64,000 bases of DNA from a virus (taxonomy: Duplodnaviria > Caudoviricetes): positions 47,444 to 111,443 of IMG/VR virus record IMGVR_UViG_3300014204_000129, one strand, 5' to 3'. The notes beneath the pieces were generated by a model. The model worked only from the letters and a program-made list of their open reading frames with translations. It was not told where the DNA came from and made no database searches. The stretch's first letter is position 1. Each line of letters begins with the position of its first letter. Below are positions 45,068-63,812 of the stretch, in pieces. Position numbers and translations under genes: made by a program.

Positions 45068-45850
45068 TTACTCCTTCCAAGTGAATCCGGCAGCATGGAG
45101 ATGCCCACCACCGCCGTGCTTCTTGGCAATAGATTTAACATCCTTTTCTATACTTCTTAAACTATAAACTACTTCTCTCCTCTTATTTTTATACCAAACC
45201 ACTCCAATATCTGCCTTACTTGCTAGGGCACCGCCTAACTCAGATTGTAGTATAGGAGAGTTTACCATAAGGCACGCATACCCATCAAGTATTGCGGGTT
45301 CGGCATTGCTAAGAATCCTCTCCACCAGTGCGTTCTTATAACGCTTAATAATAGCCCCTTCTTCGGCAAACCTGGTTATAGGTTCTTTAAGCATCGGTGC
45401 CCAGACTATAAACTCTCTGGGGTAGCTCTCTATTGAGACATTTACCTCTTCAGTGTCTACTAACTCATTATACCATAGATCTCTATCTTGTACATAGTAG
45501 TATAACCAAGGTATGTCTCTATGAGGATGAAAGTATTTCCAAGCTAGGACTGCTGCTGAGCACTCCACATCTACTTTTACATAATCACGCTCGCCAAGAG
45601 TATCAATAGTGCTAGCATGGTGATCTATAATTATTACTTTATCACACTCTAACTCTATCTCATCTACTATAGTTACAGGTAATGATAAATCTAGTATATA
45701 AACTGTACACCCTTCAAGAGGTGGTATTATAGAATAATTATCATAATCTAGTGGCAAGTATATTGCATCCTCTCCAAACTTCTTCCAGGCTGCCATACCT
45801 GCAAAGAAGCCATCTATATCATTGTGATATATTACTGTTGTCATATTCAC
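45068..45850 (-). CDS. DHH/DHHA1 phosphoesterase
   Basis: YHNDIDG, IIDHH, DRDLW, YSLRS, GGGGHLHAAGF. Confidence 0.92.
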   Translation of the reverse strand: MNMTTVIYHNDIDGFFAGMAAWKKFGEDAIYLPLDYDNYSIIPPLEGCTVYILDLSLPVTIVDEIELECDKVIIIDHHASTIDTLGERDYVKVDVECSAAVLAWKYFHPHRDIPWLYYYVQDRDLWYNELVDTEEVNVSIESYPREFIVWAPMLKEPITRFAEEGAIIKRYKNALVERILSNAEPAILDGYACLMVNSPILQSELGGALASKADIGVVWYKNKRREVVYSLRSIEKDVKSIAKKHGGGGHLHAAGFTWKE

Positions 45851-45860
45851 TCCTACAGTA

Positions 45861-45890
45861 ATTATACCATATATATCATATATATGTCAA
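45861..45890 (-). promoter_or_regulatory. Sigma70-type promoter with an internal near-palindrome
   Basis: TTGACA-18 nt-TATAAT with TG; spacer CATATATAT-C-ATATATATG. Confidence 0.7.
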
Positions 45891-46078
45891 GATACCTTCA
45901 CTAGCTTTCTATCTTCTGCCCAAGCTAGGTGGGTACCTATAAGCCAAATAACCGCTCGCCCTACCGCCTGGAAACTTATTCTTGCTTTTGTGGCAATCTC
46001 TCCCAGGGTGAGGGGTTCGGTTATATCAAGCTCCTTTATTCTCTCTATAGCCAACAACTCTTCTTCTCTAGTTATCAT
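45887..46078 (-). CDS. Small winged-HTH-like protein
   Basis: LTLGEIATKARISFQAVGRAV. Confidence 0.55.
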   Translation of the reverse strand: MITREEELLAIERIKELDITEPLTLGEIATKARISFQAVGRAVIWLIGTHLAWAEDRKLVKVS

Positions 46079-46467
46079 CTTATTAACTCCGTGGGCACCC
46101 CTGCCTTAGTAGCCCTGGTAAGCATATCCCGTGTGCCCACACTTCTGTTTATATTACTATGAAATGCTATAACAAGGTCTGCTCCAGTATCCAACATACG
46201 TTGGTTACGCAGCACACCCGCAGCCTTTCCCTCTTCCTTCCAATATGCGGGGTATACCTCAAGTTTTAAGCCCAGCAGTTTTGCTGAGGCTTCTCCTAGT
46301 TTATCTGCACCACGACAGTGGCCAGAGATTATAGTAGTATCACTGGGGAGACGAGTGAGCCTCCCCAGTATCTTACCACTATCTTCCCAGTTCCTGTCAC
46401 CACAGACTATAACCCTAGCCACTGAACTTTTCTTGGAGGTCACCAAATACTGCTGGTGCAATGCCAT
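46075..46467 (-). CDS. SLOG family (DUF2493/YspA-like) protein
   Basis: VCGDR, ISGHCRGAD, AAG..RNQRML, GTRDM. Confidence 0.85.
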   Translation of the reverse strand: MALHQQYLVTSKKSSVARVIVCGDRNWEDSGKILGRLTRLPSDTTIISGHCRGADKLGEASAKLLGLKLEVYPAYWKEEGKAAGVLRNQRMLDTGADLVIAFHSNINRSVGTRDMLTRATKAGVPTELIR

Positions 46468-47017
46468 ATAGTTGTCTAAGAACCTCTTTCATAACCTCTC
46501 GAATCTCCCACTGTGCTTCTTTATTACAACGGAGGTTTATAATATGCCGCCACTCACGGAAGTTTGCAGTCATAATAAACTCAGTAGTTGTACCCTGGCC
46601 CAGCACCATTCTTGCATCCTCTTTTGGTACACCCAGATCACGTAGTTGACTATACACATGCTGCTGATTACGCATATGCATGTCATATATCAGACGTGCT
46701 TCTTCTAAATGTGCTGTACCACTCATACTAGGAATACCTATAAAGGAGAATTTATCTGCTGCTATGTATCTTTGACTAGCCACACTAAAGCTTGCCAGAC
46801 GGTGCCTAGTAATCTGTGTTAAAAGAGCCCGACTAACCCCACTAATATAAAAGGTAGCGCTAGCATGCTCTAGAGGAGTCTCATGCTCACGACCAATACA
46901 GCGCTTAATAAAGGAATCTCTTGTAACCTCATTACTATCTGTACCCCAACATATTCTATATGCACGCTCAATAAGCTCTTCAGGGCAGGGTGTATATACT
47001 AGAAGTTCAACATTCAT
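46415..47017 (-). CDS. thyX: FAD-dependent thymidylate synthase
   Basis: HETPLEH, RHR..SFS..SQRY, EDAR..L, AQWEIR. Confidence 0.95.
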   Translation of the reverse strand: MNVELLVYTPCPEELIERAYRICWGTDSNEVTRDSFIKRCIGREHETPLEHASATFYISGVSRALLTQITRHRLASFSVASQRYIAADKFSFIGIPSMSGTAHLEEARLIYDMHMRNQQHVYSQLRDLGVPKEDARMVLGQGTTTEFIMTANFREWRHIINLRCNKEAQWEIREVMKEVLRQLYGIAPAVFGDLQEKFSG

Positions 47018-47730
47018 GTACTATTACCTCCACAGGTATCTTCAACTTTAGTGCAAAGAAAGCTAGTTGTCTAAAGACATCACTCTCTCCTAAAATGAAT
47101 ACCTTATCTGGTCTACTTTCTATTACCTGTATATCACGGTCTAGGCCCATCATCAGATCTTTGTGAGTAGTAGCACCACTGTGGTAGAAGTCCGCAGGGG
47201 TACAGTCTATCTTGTACCCCTCAGCTACAGCGCGTACCCCAGCGGCTAAGCCAGCCCTTGTATCTAAGTCACAGATTATTGTATCATCTTCTTTACTTAG
47301 TTGGGCTAGAATTTCTTCTAGCCCAGTATTAGTGTTTGCTAGTATAAATACTCTCATCTGCTACCCAATCTGTTACATCATAGCTAGGAACTACCTCTCC
47401 CGGCATAAAACTAACACTACGAATATTATCAATATTCATCATATCTCTTGAAACATCTCTAAGATTACTTCTCCGTAGAAGAGAACTGATCTCATCTTCC
47501 ATCCTATATATAAGCCTATCCCGTCTGTTCTCCTGTTGTTTTTTATCATGGAAACCCTGTGCGCGCCATCGTGCTCGTAGCATAGCGAGAAGTTTAGCAT
47601 AGTTACTTTCTATAGCAAGAATAGCATATACTATAGAATGTAATCTATATACCTCTGCATCCACTTCTTCTAGACTCTCACTTACATATGTTACTACGGG
47701 CCTCTTACCTACTATCATTACAACATACAC
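47007..47730 (-). CDS. Two hypothetical proteins (47007-47357, 47329-47730)
   Basis: Coupled ORFs directly downstream of Ro60. Confidence 0.6.
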
Positions 47731-63474: not shown

Positions 63475-63540
63475 TTAGGGGGAAGTCTCTTCCCCCTGAG
63501 AAAGGAGGTATCACCAAGCAGGTACGTGCAGTAACCTGCC
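63475..63540 (-). ncRNA. Hairpin / anti-SD (ACCTCCTTTCT) / hairpin element
   Basis: GCAGGT..ACCTGC-TTGGTGATACCTCCTTTCT-CAGGGGGAAG-AGA-CTTCCCCCT. Confidence 0.5.
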
Positions 63541-63542
63541 AG

Positions 63543-63629
63543 TGGGCAGATGTGGAGTCGCACCACAGGGGGGGACTTTGCCCCTTCTGATTTACAGTCA
63601 GACCCGGCCCTCTGCCGGACTACCTACCC
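63543..63629 (-). tRNA. tRNA-Tyr(GUA), atypical D arm
   Basis: TCTGA-CTGTAAA-TCAGA, long variable arm, 6-bp D stem, T loop TGCGACT. Confidence 0.8.
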
Positions 63630-63719
63630 ATATAAATGCTCTACTTCCCTAAGAATTTTACTAGCTATGTTATTGGCCAGTTATACACGATATTATGACA
63701 CAAACTTAACACTGTCTTA

Positions 63720-63776
63720 ATGGGGCGGTTCCGCCCAGAGATCTCTCTCAGTGTGCCTGGATCAACCCCGCCCCAT
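63720..63776 (-). ncRNA. 5' leader hairpin of the RNA cluster
   Basis: ATGGGGCGG/CCGCCCCAT closing stem starting about 7 nt after the -10 box. Confidence 0.45.
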
Positions 63777-63783
63777 CAACCGC

Positions 63784-63812
63784 AGTATAGCACAGGCCGC
63801 CCGACCTGTCAA
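63784..63812 (-). promoter_or_regulatory. Sigma70 promoter driving the tRNA/ncRNA cluster
   Basis: TTGACA-GGTCGGGCGGCCTGTGC-TATACT (17-nt spacer). Confidence 0.8.

What the first reader, a model, noticed from the sequence alone, without database searches (positions are those of the whole stretch)
45068..63812. Phage-encoded Ro60 / CCA / tRNA-mimic RNA quality-control or anti-defence toolkit
Seen: Ro60, ATP-grasp, CCA/HD enzyme, DHH phosphoesterase, macro domain, SLOG and a tRNA/tRNA-mimic array all lie on one arm. None of the 9 tRNAs encodes CCA. Established: bacterial Ro60 is linked to RNA damage responses (rtcB operons, PNPase tethering), HD domains of CCA enzymes heal 2',3'-cyclic phosphate ends, and macro domains reverse ADP-ribosylation. 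No RtcB or RNA ligase is visible in this window. Inference: the set forms a system that heals, replaces or decoys tRNAs attacked by host toxins or anticodon nucleases.
Basis: partly seen in the sequence, partly recalled or inferred. Interest (0 to 1): 0.75.

Follow-up and report, generated by a model that had tools for sequence, protein, structure and literature searches.

The report
Phage Ro60, tRNA-like RNAs, accessory genes
A roughly 121-kb phage carries a true Ro60 RNA-surveillance protein, probable tRNA-shaped partner RNAs, a tRNA array with a CCA-adding enzyme and (just past the window) an RNA ligase, but these are a loose, separately transcribed collection of known kinds rather than one co-inherited system.

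Summary

The "single toolkit" reading is only partly supported:
- The arm has at least three near-consensus promoters, so it is not one operon.
- In 14 large comparison phage genomes, CCA enzyme, Pfam Macro and this DHH occur in 0 of 14, even where Ro60 is present.
- In cultured phages, Ro60 (354 records, mainly actinophages) and CCA enzymes (454, mainly proteobacterial phages) barely overlap.
- The ATP-grasp family sits beside Macro or NADAR genes elsewhere, never beside Ro60.
- A homologue of the SLOG gene lies in the polymerase block of a Gordonia phage.

A smaller core does have comparative support. An RNA motif taken only from the two long tRNA-like RNAs recovered non-tRNA, non-coding elements in six large viral contigs, and all six encode Ro60. 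In two metagenome contigs the element lies about 250 nt from Ro60.

The "missing" ligase exists. A T4 Rnl2-like gene split by two tandem inteins lies about 5 kb past the window end, in 9.4 kb that this record lacks. An RlaP nucleotidyltransferase lies elsewhere in the genome.

The general concept is already published. This scan has also noted Ro60-like protein plus partner-RNA pairings on other DNA before.

The parts
63784..63812 (-). Promoter-like site TTGACA-17-TATACT with TG, upstream of the RNA array
   Evidence: 11 of 12 consensus match. It lies in the gap before tRNA-Tyr.
63542..63629 (-). tRNA-Tyr(GUA), type II, no encoded CCA
   Evidence: ARAGORN only. 3' trailer checked.
63397..63471 (-). 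tRNA-Val(UAC)
   Evidence: ARAGORN and Rfam, 55.5 bits.
63276..63393 (-). tl1: 118-nt tRNA-shaped RNA. It has an acceptor stem, D arm and T arm, with 53 nt in place of the anticodon loop carrying GGUCGUGG and GGUUAUCA. Candidate Ro60 partner.
   Evidence: Rfam tRNA 49.4 bits with a 53-nt insert. Fold. Family covariation. Family association with Ro60.
63146..63270 (-). tl2: 125-nt paralogue of tl1
   Evidence: Alignment with tl1, fold and family alignment.
63067..63139 (-). Doubtful tRNA-like element, called His(atg) by ARAGORN
   Evidence: ARAGORN only. No Rfam hit at E up to 10.
62871..63052 (-). tl3: 166-nt expanded cloverleaf, preceded by GCCGAAUG at 63045-63052, which matches the Ro-binding motif GNCGAAN0-1G
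   Evidence: Fold z -2.5. Motif match; it is not enriched window-wide (6 found against 8.2 expected).
62645..62790 (-). tl4: a further tRNA-like fold with an acceptor-like stem and a T arm with a UGCAAAU loop. Boundaries are approximate.
   Evidence: Minimum-free-energy folds of the region. Read by eye, with no comparative support.
62412..62483 (-). tRNA, read as Cys(GCA)
   Evidence: Rfam 57.3 bits. The anticodon is my own reading of the loop.
62026..62169 (-). tRNA-Gln(UUG) and tRNA-Lys(UUU), abutting
   Evidence: ARAGORN and Rfam, 65 and 69 bits.
60392..60979 (-). tRNA-Leu(UAA), Leu(CAA), Leu(UAG) and Glu(UUC)
   Evidence: ARAGORN and Rfam.
57386..57889 (-). Divergent macro domain, DarG/TARG1-like
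   Evidence: phrog_335 5e-18; PDB macrodomains; DarG model 5e-7; homologues with PF01661. Pfam Macro itself does not hit.
54826..56211 (-). Class II CCA-adding enzyme with a C-terminal HD domain
   Evidence: PolyA_pol, HD and tRNA_NucTran2_2; phrog_2244 1e-57. The best NCBIfam model is the multifunctional CCA addition/repair protein, below its cut-off.
49487..50095 (-). Short ATP-grasp enzyme from an unnamed family
   Evidence: AlphaFold2 pLDDT 93.6; Foldseek hits to synapsin, RimK and Ddl. 74 homologues, beside Macro or near NADAR in other elements.
49462..49490 (-). Perfect promoter-like site TTGACA-17-TATAAT with TG, immediately 5' of Ro60
   Evidence: 12 of 12 consensus match.
47731..49434 (-). 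Ro60/Rsr (TROVE plus vWA with MIDAS)
   Evidence: 43-46% identical to actinophage Ro proteins and at most 57% to any other protein.
46415..47017 (-). ThyX thymidylate synthase
   Evidence: Thy1 1e-57.
46075..46467 (-). YAcAr/YspA SLOG protein
   Evidence: PF10686 5e-10. It is homologous to Sixama gp169, which lies next to PolA and RuvC there.
45861..45890 (-). Perfect promoter-like site 5' of the DHH gene
   Evidence: 12 of 12 consensus match with TG.
45068..45850 (-). DHH/DHHA1 phosphoesterase
   Evidence: phrog_4771 1e-59. Pfam DHH and DHHA1 hits are below cut-off. Weak NrnA hit.
42932..44716 (-). Family A DNA polymerase with a 3'-5' exonuclease domain (context)
   Evidence: DNA_pol_A 3e-99.

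Best explanation
The arm is a mosaic of separately transcribed accessory modules in a circularly permuted phage genome of about 120.8 kb. It is not one system.

(1) A genuine Ro60 ribonucleoprotein module. Ro60 is made from its own strong promoter. It most likely binds the tRNA-shaped RNAs tl1 and tl2 in the tRNA array. These carry, in a hairpin that replaces the anticodon arm, the same strand order as YrlA-type Y RNAs: a G-N-C-G motif, then GGUUAUCA, then the T arm. They keep the natural tRNA order of parts, with an open acceptor stem. By analogy with bacterial Rsr and with Thermus phage phiLo Ro60, the complex would tether or modulate a host exonuclease such as PNPase, or act on damaged structured RNA.

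(2) A tRNA supply module. At least 14 canonical tRNAs lack encoded CCA and match the phage's favoured A-ending codons. The CCA-adding/HD enzyme most simply matures and maintains these tRNAs, and possibly the tl RNAs.

(3) RNA end-joining capacity encoded elsewhere. A T4 Rnl2-like ligase interrupted by two inteins lies about 5 kb beyond the window. An RlaP nucleotidyltransferase lies about 7 kb before the window start.

(4) Unrelated conflict or metabolism genes. These are the DarG-like macro domain and the ATP-grasp enzyme (ADP-ribose handling), and SLOG, ThyX and DHH (nucleotide and DNA metabolism beside the polymerase).

What is shown: domain identities, promoters, co-occurrence counts and RNA covariation. 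What is inferred: Ro60 binding to tl RNAs, any link to PNPase, and any repair activity.
For: Domain identities.

Transcription units: three near-perfect extended -10 promoters sit in the gaps 5' of the RNA array, of Ro60 and of DHH.

RNA partner family:
- A pattern derived only from tl1/tl2 hit 20 IMG/VR contigs.
- The non-tRNA, non-coding hits on records of at least 60 kb (G001-G004, G013, G016) all encode full-length TROVE proteins. In cultured phages the figure is 354 of 50,697.
- In G003/G004 the RNA lies 0.9 kb upstream of Ro60. In metagenome contigs L150 and L196 it lies about 250 nt from a Ro60 gene.
- All 7 acceptor pairs of the six true-topology members covary with no broken pair.
- Positive control: in Gordonia phage Sixama a YrlA sits inside the tRNA array beside Ro60.

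Ligase:
- L053 and L055 are 100% identical to the record and bridge its two ends across a 9,401-bp gap.
- The 821-aa ORF hits RNA_ligase plus intein and LAGLIDADG models. Its C-terminal part hits phrog_548.
- Intein-free homologues are about 300 aa.
- The family profile and a model of an intein-free homologue both match T4 Rnl2 best.

Other points: RlaP. Codon use matches the tRNA set.

Published precedent: Chen 2014 (PMC4201824); phiLo Ro60 with Yrl RNAs and PNPase (PMC12135203); the phage RNA-repair inventory (PMC7824862).
Against: - No RNA-protein binding data exist.
- tl1 and tl2 have degenerate motifs (GGUCGUGG, GGCCAAAUG) rather than the CGAA that was mutated in phiLo.
- Rfam YrlA scores only 22-24 bits here, against a gathering score of 69.
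- tl1/tl2 lie 14 kb from Ro60. In G001/G002 the RNA is 42-45 kb from Ro60.
- Two of the comparison records chosen without regard to Ro60 carry a short TROVE-like ORF (G018 and G024). The background rate of Ro60-like genes among large tRNA-rich phages is therefore not negligible.
- The ligases that co-occur with Ro60 in G001-G004 are not orthologous to this one.
- No separate ATP-dependent DNA ligase was found in the record, so the ligase might serve DNA.
- Whether the tandem inteins splice to give an active enzyme is unknown.
- The host is unknown.
Confidence: 0.6

Rival explanations
1. All the named genes cooperate in one system that heals, replaces or decoys tRNAs attacked by host toxins. 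Ro60 with tRNA mimics acts as a scaffold or decoy. The HD domain of the CCA enzyme and DHH heal ends. The ligase seals. The macro domain removes ADP-ribose from RNA. ATP-grasp and SLOG have accessory roles.
For: - All parts lie on one strand within 19 kb.
- A ligase and RlaP do exist in the genome.
- In G003, Ro60, its RNA, a P-loop protein and an RNA ligase cluster within 8 kb.
- The concept has published support for jumbo phages (PMC7824862).
Against: - CCA enzyme, Macro and DHH occur in 0 of 14 comparison genomes, including all those that encode Ro60.
- Ro60 and CCA enzymes occupy disjoint sets of cultured phages.
- ATP-grasp contexts never include Ro60.
- The SLOG homologue in Sixama lies in the polymerase block.
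- There are separate promoters.
- No polynucleotide kinase was found.
- The macro domain resembles DarG, a DNA ADP-ribosyl glycohydrolase.
Confidence: 0.12
2. The long tRNA-like RNAs are unrelated to Ro60. They are degenerate, intron-bearing or decoy tRNAs of the array, for instance baits for anticodon nucleases or processing signals. On this view Ro60 binds another RNA, or only host RNAs.
For: - The elements sit among tRNAs, 14 kb from Ro60.
- Rfam scores tl1 as a tRNA at 49 bits.
- The Ro motif is degenerate in tl1 and tl2.
- A better GNCGAAnG match lies 5' of tl3.
Against: - The six non-tRNA, non-coding motif hits on large contigs are all in Ro60-encoding genomes.
- Direct adjacency is seen in G003/G004, L150 and L196.
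- The motif strand, then GGUUAUCA, then the T arm is the same order seen in YrlA-like elements of other Ro60 phages.
- The 53-60-nt inserts leave no plausible anticodon loop.
Confidence: 0.15
3. The ligase beyond the window is the phage's replicative nick-sealing DNA ligase, or is inactive because of its tandem inteins. On this view the phage has no RNA-sealing activity, and Ro60 acts only through host nucleases.
For: - No other ATP-dependent DNA ligase was found in the record.
- The gene follows a nucleotide-metabolism block with RNR, MazG, a deoxyribosyltransferase and PAPS reductase.
- A 12-residue extein duplicate lies between the two inteins.
Against: - The best sequence and fold matches are RNA ligases: T4 Rnl2, REL1, NgrRnl, Rnl3 and Rnl1. 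DNA ligases rank lower.
- The C-terminal domain is all-helical, as in Rnl2, and is not an OB fold.
- PHROG names the family RNA ligase.
- An RlaP enzyme, typically associated with ligases, is present.
Confidence: 0.2

Closest known systems
Bacterial and phage Ro60 (Rsr) with YrlA-type Y RNAs (Chen et al. 2014, PMC4201824; Rfam RF02553)
   Same: - The protein has the full TROVE plus vWA/MIDAS architecture.
- The candidate partner RNAs contain tRNA-like D and T arms.
- A G-N-C-G-type motif lies on the strand immediately 5' of the T arm.
- The RNAs sit in or near tRNA arrays, as in Gordonia phage Sixama.
   Different: - tl1, tl2 and their relatives keep natural tRNA connectivity. The acceptor stem is open and the motif-bearing stem is closed by a loop, so they are a circular permutation of YrlA.
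- The Rfam model scores only 22-24 bits.
- The RNA is 14 kb from Ro60 rather than adjacent.
- The motif is degenerate in tl1 and tl2.
Thermus phage phiLo Ro60 with Yrl1/Yrl2 and host PNPase (NAR 2025, PMC12135203)
   Same: A phage-encoded Ro60 with phage-encoded small RNA partners and no phage PNPase. It gives a plausible mechanism of tethering or attenuating a host exonuclease.
   Different: - The phiLo Yrls are stem-bulge-stem RNAs lying just upstream of the gene and carrying a CGAA motif.
- Here the candidates are tRNA-shaped and distant from the gene.
- Nothing has been tested biochemically.
Phage RNA-repair and counter-defence inventories of jumbo phages (Iyer et al. 2021, PMC7824862)
   Same: The parts list is the same: tRNAs, Rnl-type ligase, RlaP, CCA-adding enzyme, ROT/TROVE with a tRNA-like partner, Macro, YAcAr SLOG and DHH phosphodiesterase.
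   Different: - This genome is about 121 kb, not jumbo size.
- The genes are dispersed and in separate transcription units.
- No polynucleotide kinase, 2H or RtcB was found.
- The ligase carries two tandem inteins.
Salmonella rsr-yrlBA-rtcBA RNA repair operon (Hughes et al. 2020, PMC7790460)
   Same: Ro60, Y RNAs and an RNA ligase are encoded in one genome.
   Different: There is no RtcB, RtcA or RtcR. The ligase is an ATP-dependent Rnl2-like enzyme. It is not an operon.
T4 RNA ligase 2 (PDB 2HVQ/2HVR)
   Same: - The family of the off-window ligase is the best sequence-profile and fold match.
- A KxDG motif I is present.
- The layout is two domains, with a helical C-terminal domain.
   Different: Identity is only about 15-16%. 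The gene is interrupted directly after motif I by two inteins with a duplicated 12-residue extein segment.

Membership tests
Ro60/Rsr (TROVE family) | TROVE HEAT-repeat ring domain followed by a vWA domain with a MIDAS motif | tested here: met
   PF05731 1e-44 and PF25045 5e-58. DVSGS motif in the translation. NCBIfam Rsr scores 543 bits, below the equivalog cut-off of 900.
Ro60/Rsr (TROVE family) | Binds a Y RNA | not testable with these tools
   Only comparative association of the tl/Y-like RNA family with Ro60 genes is available.
YrlA Y RNA (Rfam RF02553) | Score at or above the Rfam gathering threshold of 69 bits | tested here: not met
   The best hits score 22-24 bits and straddle neighbouring tRNA-like units. 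The Sixama control scores 46.8 bits.
YrlA Y RNA (Rfam RF02553) | tRNA-like T and D arms, plus a stem carrying a GNCGAA-type motif 5' of the T arm | tested here: inconclusive
   T and D arms are present. The motif is degenerate in tl1 (GGUCGUGG) and tl2 (GGCCAAAUG) but clear in relatives, for example GGGUCGAAGG in L068.
YrlA Y RNA (Rfam RF02553) | Permuted topology: the 5' and 3' ends lie in the Ro-binding stem and the acceptor-like stem is closed by a loop | tested here: not met
   The acceptor stem is open. All 7 pairs covary across 6 members, including stand-alone copies. A permuted reading across the tl1/tl2 junction is possible only in the tandem copy.
Class II CCA-adding enzyme with HD domain (E. 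coli Cca type) | Pol-beta head with GGxVRD and DxD, an EDxxR motif, and a C-terminal HD phosphohydrolase domain | tested here: met
   PF01743 and PF01966. Motifs are visible. The best NCBIfam model is the CCA addition/repair protein, but below the equivalog cut-off. CCA specificity versus A-adding or poly(A) activity was not tested.
Macro domain (PF01661) | Match to the Pfam Macro model | tested here: not met
   No hit at E up to 5.
Macro domain (PF01661) | Remote homology to solved or curated macrodomains | tested here: met
   PDB 5m3i at 0.0025, with TARG1 and others. DarG macro 5e-7. Homologues carry PF01661. No structure model was made.
ATP-grasp superfamily | ATP-grasp fold | tested here: met
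   pLDDT 93.6. Foldseek probability 1.0 to synapsin, RimK, Ddl and ArgX, with TM 0.56-0.67. Substrate unknown.
Rnl2-like ATP-dependent RNA ligase (off-window gene, L053:176-2641) | Nucleotidyltransferase motifs (KxDG lysine, motifs III-V) and an Rnl2-type helical C-terminal domain | tested here: met
   EKVDGS at residues 28-33. PF09414 scores 28.8 bits against a cut-off of 27. The profile matches T4 Rnl2 residues 204-300. Fold ranking. RNA versus DNA substrate was not tested.
rsr-yrlBA-rtcBA-type RNA repair operon | RtcB ligase co-transcribed with Ro60 and Y RNAs | tested here: not met
   No RtcB in the record. Ro60 has its own promoter and is followed by ThyX and SLOG.
T4-type healing-and-sealing pathway (Pnk plus Rnl) | Polynucleotide kinase-phosphatase | tested here: not met
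   No AAA_33 kinase in the record. Only the HD domain and one metallophosphoesterase are present. Genes in the 9.4-kb gap were scanned only in part.

The most novel reading that the evidence does not exclude
tl1, tl2 and their relatives are a previously undescribed class of Y RNA with natural, unpermuted tRNA connectivity. RNase P and RNase Z would release them from the tRNA array, the phage CCA enzyme would add CCA, and Ro60 would bind them through the GNCG-GGUUAUCA strand of the arm that replaces the anticodon stem. Together with the Rnl2-like ligase, and in some lineages RlaP, they would form a phage ribonucleoprotein that repairs tRNAs or protects them against host tRNA-targeting defences. 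The circular-permutation relation to YrlA would also show how Y RNAs arose from tandem tRNA genes.
Probability: 0.25. Interest if true: 0.7.

Novelty: new variant of a known kind. Interest (0 to 1): 0.5.

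Why it matters
Phage Ro60 is common, yet its function is barely understood and only one phage Ro60 has been studied biochemically.

This phage offers three things:
- A clear test case outside the actinophages, with bona fide Ro60.
- Candidate partner RNAs that look like whole tRNAs rather than permuted ones.
- A nearby set of tRNA-maintenance enzymes.

If Ro60 binds these RNAs, two results follow. The known architectures of Y RNA would widen. It would also become directly testable whether phage Ro60 particles repair tRNAs, act as decoys for them, or shield them from host nucleases.

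The negative result matters too. Most of the neighbouring "toolkit" genes are not inherited with Ro60, so they should not be annotated as one system.

Tried and rejected
- Nucleotide search of the arm against cultured phages: no match.
- Close relatives sought in IMG/VR with Ro60 and with the CCA enzyme: none found. PolA relatives are only 27-32% identical and share only a SLOG gene near PolA. A true sister-phage comparison was therefore impossible.
- Canonical YrlA near Ro60 or in the array: only weak hits straddling adjacent tRNAs.
- The GNCGAAnG motif is not enriched in the window, with 6 found against 8.2 expected.
- The 217-nt gap at 53980-54195 has no significant fold, z 0.13.
- No hit in the record for DUF2828 (Ro60-like), RtcB, Pfam Macro, ATP-dependent DNA ligase or AAA_33 kinase.
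- The metagenome pattern scan was dominated by one recurrent, apparently coding, gut sequence and by ordinary tRNAs. Only hits with a complete T arm were informative.
- Two viral-contig pattern hits (L066, L078) turned out to be ordinary tRNA-Gln genes and were dropped from the association count.
- The idea that the ligases of G001-G004 are orthologues of this phage's ligase was rejected, because BLASTP finds nothing.
- Burroughs and Aravind 2016 (PMC5062991) is not held in the library, so it is cited only through PMC7824862.

Full report
**Where the window lies**

The window is the last 64 kb of a 111,443-bp IMG/VR virus record. The same phage occurs as a 121,319-bp ENA contig and a 120,874-bp Logan contig. 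Loci from these are 100% identical to the record over 21.7 and 12.5 kb.

Locus L055 joins the record's two ends across 9,401 bp that the record lacks. The genome is therefore about 120.8 kb and circularly permuted, and the window stops just short of relevant genes. No close relative exists in cultured phages. Searches of IMG/VR with Ro60 and with the CCA enzyme found none either, and PolA relatives there are only 27-32% identical.

**Observation check**

All genes from 42.9 to 63.8 kb are on the minus strand.

| Gene | Coordinates | Evidence |
|---|---|---|
| Ro60 | 47731-49434 | TROVE plus vWA_Ro60; Rsr model 543 bits |
| CCA-adding enzyme with HD | 54826-56211 |; catalytic motifs visible |
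| DHH/DHHA1 | 45068-45850 | weak in Pfam, phrog_4771 1e-59 |
| YAcAr SLOG | 46075-46467 | |
| ThyX | 46415-47017 | |
| ATP-grasp | 49487-50095 | see below |
| Macro | 57386-57889 | see below |

- **ATP-grasp.** The 202-aa ORF has no Pfam, PHROG or PDB sequence hit. It does have 74 homologues. Its model, at pLDDT 93.6, matches synapsin, RimK and Ddl at probability 1.0.
- **Macro.** The 167-aa ORF is missed by Pfam Macro. It hits phrog_335, solved macrodomains and the DarG macro model, and has PF01661-bearing homologues.
- **tRNAs.** ARAGORN gives nine, of which 'His(atg)' is doubtful. Rfam adds a tRNA at 62412-62483, which I read as Cys(GCA), and a 118-nt tRNA-like element. None has an encoded CCA.

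**The RNA array**

The 1.5 kb between 62170 and 63640 is essentially non-coding. Besides tRNAs it holds:
- Two tandem paralogous tRNA-shaped RNAs, tl1 (63276-63393) and tl2 (63146-63270). Each has an acceptor stem, D arm and T arm, with a 53-60-nt hairpin in place of the anticodon loop.
- A 166-nt expanded cloverleaf, tl3, at 62871-63036.
- A further tRNA-like fold, tl4.

An 11-of-12 extended -10 promoter sits at 63812-63784.

Beyond the window the array continues. ARAGORN calls Phe, Thr, Asn and Trp. Rfam adds one more tRNA at L053 6892-6963, which I read as Ile(UAU).

The phage's codon use favours ATA, CTA, TTA, GTA and ACA. This matches its UAU, UAG, UAA, UAC and UGU anticodons. That is the ordinary codon-supply explanation for the array and, with it, for a CCA-adding enzyme.

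**Is there a Y RNA?**

As a control, Gordonia phage Sixama has Ro60 directly upstream of a 30-tRNA array. That array contains a tmRNA and a full-length YrlA hit of 46.8 bits. In this window YrlA scores only 22-24 bits, on hits that straddle adjacent tRNA-like units.

I therefore took a pattern from tl1/tl2 alone, GGTTATCA-N8-24-GTAGGTTCGA, and scanned IMG/VR. The results were:
- **True-topology relatives.** These appear in G001/G002, in G003/G004 and in a 16-kb fragment.
- **Canonically permuted relatives.** Elements with the same strand order (G-N-C-G motif, GGUUAUCA, T arm) appear in G013, G016 and others.
- **Link to Ro60.** All six such records of at least 60 kb encode full-length TROVE proteins. 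In cultured phages the rate is 354 of 50,697.
- **Adjacency.** In G003/G004 the RNA is 0.9 kb upstream of Ro60. In metagenome contigs L150 and L196 it is about 250 nt from a Ro60 gene.
- **Covariation.** In the six true-topology members every one of the seven acceptor pairs covaries, with none broken.

Several cautions apply:
- Two hits were ordinary tRNA-Gln genes and were excluded.
- G018 (one of those two excluded records) and the control record G024 each carry a short TROVE-like ORF, which suggests a non-trivial background rate.
- The independent lineages are few, about four plus this phage.
- The tl1/tl2 motifs are degenerate relative to the CGAA shown to matter in phiLo (PMC12135203).
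- In the tandem copy, a permuted unit across the tl1/tl2 junction cannot be excluded.

**The ligase**

Neither RtcB nor PF09414 is found in the record. In the 9.4-kb gap, however, an 821-aa ORF (L053:176-2641) carries EKVDGS (motif I) at residues 28-33. Two inteins in tandem follow it, the first with a LAGLIDADG endonuclease. Each intein ends in HN followed by SQISFG, and a 12-residue extein duplicate lies between them.

Supporting evidence:
- The C-terminal 270 aa hit phrog_548, named RNA ligase.
- Intein-free homologues are about 300 aa and align from residue 33-37.
- Their profile best matches T4 Rnl2.
- A model of one such homologue (P0281, pLDDT 94.7) ranks T4 Rnl2, REL1, NgrRnl, Rnl3 and Rnl1 above DNA ligases.

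The gene follows RNR, MazG, deoxyribosyltransferase and PAPS-reductase genes. No separate ATP-dependent DNA ligase was found, so a role on DNA is not excluded.

An RlaP nucleotidyltransferase lies at record position 40406-41104. One metallophosphoesterase lies at 55427-55819. No AAA_33 kinase was found.

**Does the set behave as a system?**

- **Transcription.** Perfect 12-of-12 promoters with TG lie in the 52-nt gap 5' of Ro60 (49490-49462) and 5' of DHH (45890-45861). The likely units are Ro60-ThyX-SLOG and DHH-PolA, separate from the ATP-grasp and CCA genes upstream.
- **Cultured phages.** Ro60 occurs in Mycobacterium, Streptomyces, Gordonia and Microbacterium phages. CCA enzymes occur mainly in Vibrio, Escherichia, Erwinia, Klebsiella and Aeromonas phages.
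- **ATP-grasp family.** It occurs in one cultured phage. Across seven distinct contexts it lies next to a Macro gene in two and within about 2 kb of NADAR in two, and it is never near Ro60.
- **SLOG.** Its homologue in Sixama lies beside PolA and RuvC. Two IMG/VR contigs fetched around their PolA genes also carry a homologue.

Across 14 large IMG/VR genomes (six with full-length Ro60 and two with a short TROVE-like ORF):

| Gene | Genomes with a hit |
|---|---|
| PF01743 (CCA enzyme) | 0 of 14 |
| Pfam Macro | 0 of 14 |
| This DHH | 0 of 14 |
| PF09414 ligase, strong hit | G001-G004 (the four true-topology Ro60 genomes) and one Ro60-negative genome |
| RlaP | G003 and G013 |

In G003 the RNA, Ro60, a DNA ligase, an AAA_28 P-loop protein and an Rnl5-like RNA ligase lie within 8 kb. 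That ligase is not orthologous to this phage's ligase.

Only Ro60, its tRNA-like RNA and, loosely, an RNA ligase travel together. The other genes vary independently.

**Comparison with what is known**

- Phage Ro60 with YrlA was described in 2014 (PMC4201824).
- The phiLo phage Ro60 binds two phage Y-like RNAs and attenuates host PNPase (PMC12135203).
- A parts list of phage RNA repair and NAD/ADP-ribose counter-defence has been published. It covers tRNAs, Rnl ligases, RlaP, CCA enzyme, ROT/TROVE with a tRNA-like partner, Macro, YAcAr SLOG and DHH (PMC7824862).

The general interpretation is therefore not new. Earlier notes of this scan also report Ro60-like proteins with partner RNAs in many other phages. 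Those concern DUF2828-type proteins, which are absent here.

What appears new:
- The unpermuted, whole-tRNA topology of the candidate Y RNAs.
- Their association with bona fide Ro60 in non-actinophage genomes.
- The tandem-intein Rnl2-like ligase.

**Verdict**

The single-system interpretation is only partly supported, and a smaller core of Ro60 with tRNA-shaped RNA is the part worth pursuing. I rate interest at 0.5.

Noticed in passing
L053:176-2641 (about 5.2-7.6 kb beyond the window end; absent from the IMG/VR record): An Rnl2-like RNA ligase gene is interrupted directly after motif I (EKVDGS) by two tandem inteins. Residues 34-392 form the first intein, which has a LAGLIDADG_2 endonuclease; residues about 405-551 form a mini-intein. 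Each ends in HN followed by SQISFG, and a duplicated 12-residue extein segment lies between them. Intein-free homologues are about 300 aa.
   Followed up: partly
window 49487-50095; loci L002-L008, L060: This is an unnamed family of short (about 200-250 aa) ATP-grasp enzymes found in phages and other mobile elements. In two unrelated phage contigs the gene starts 5 bp after a PF01661 Macro gene. In two other contexts it lies within about 2 kb of a NADAR gene. This suggests a role in ADP-ribose chemistry.
   Followed up: partly
G000 record ends; L055 8243-17643: The IMG/VR record is a circularly permuted assembly that lacks 9,401 bp. The missing stretch holds PAPS reductase, the ligase, a 652-aa protein with methyltransferase, hexapeptide and GT2 domains, five more tRNAs and an HNH gene. 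CheckV's 75% completeness therefore understates it: the record holds about 92% of the genome.
   Followed up: yes
window 56573-57468 and 59722-60093: Several small ORFs (101, 87, 107 and 123 aa) begin with similar hydrophobic YY[VL]I-type N-termini and look like a paralogous family. None matches Pfam or PHROGs.
   Followed up: no
window 62412-62483, 62871-63036, 62645-62790, 63542-63629: The tRNA at 62412-62483, tRNA-Tyr, tl3 and tl4 share an unusual T loop (UGCAAAU or UGCGACU) instead of UUCGAAU. tl3 carries a hairpin of about 50 nt inserted in its T loop.
   Followed up: partly
L098 (G003:C1:52500-63500): A 146-kb phage has a compact cluster on one strand: a tRNA-shaped Y-like RNA, a 102-aa ORF, Ro60, a 96-aa ORF, an ATP-dependent DNA ligase, a 243-aa ORF, an AAA_28 P-loop protein and an Rnl5-like RNA ligase (PHA02142 OB domain plus RNA_ligase). 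This is a better candidate than the window for a real Ro60-linked repair operon.
   Followed up: partly
L001 13998-14419 and 14904-15002 (Gordonia phage Sixama): Rfam finds a tmRNA (88 bits) and a YrlA-like RNA (46.8 bits) in unannotated gaps of the tRNA array next to the Ro-like gene.
   Followed up: no
window 62733 region (tl4): A CAGCAA sequence sits in a bulged helix of tl4. Earlier notes of this scan link such a 'handle' to DUF2828-type Ro60-like proteins. No DUF2828 gene is present here, and a single 6-mer match is not significant.
   Followed up: partly
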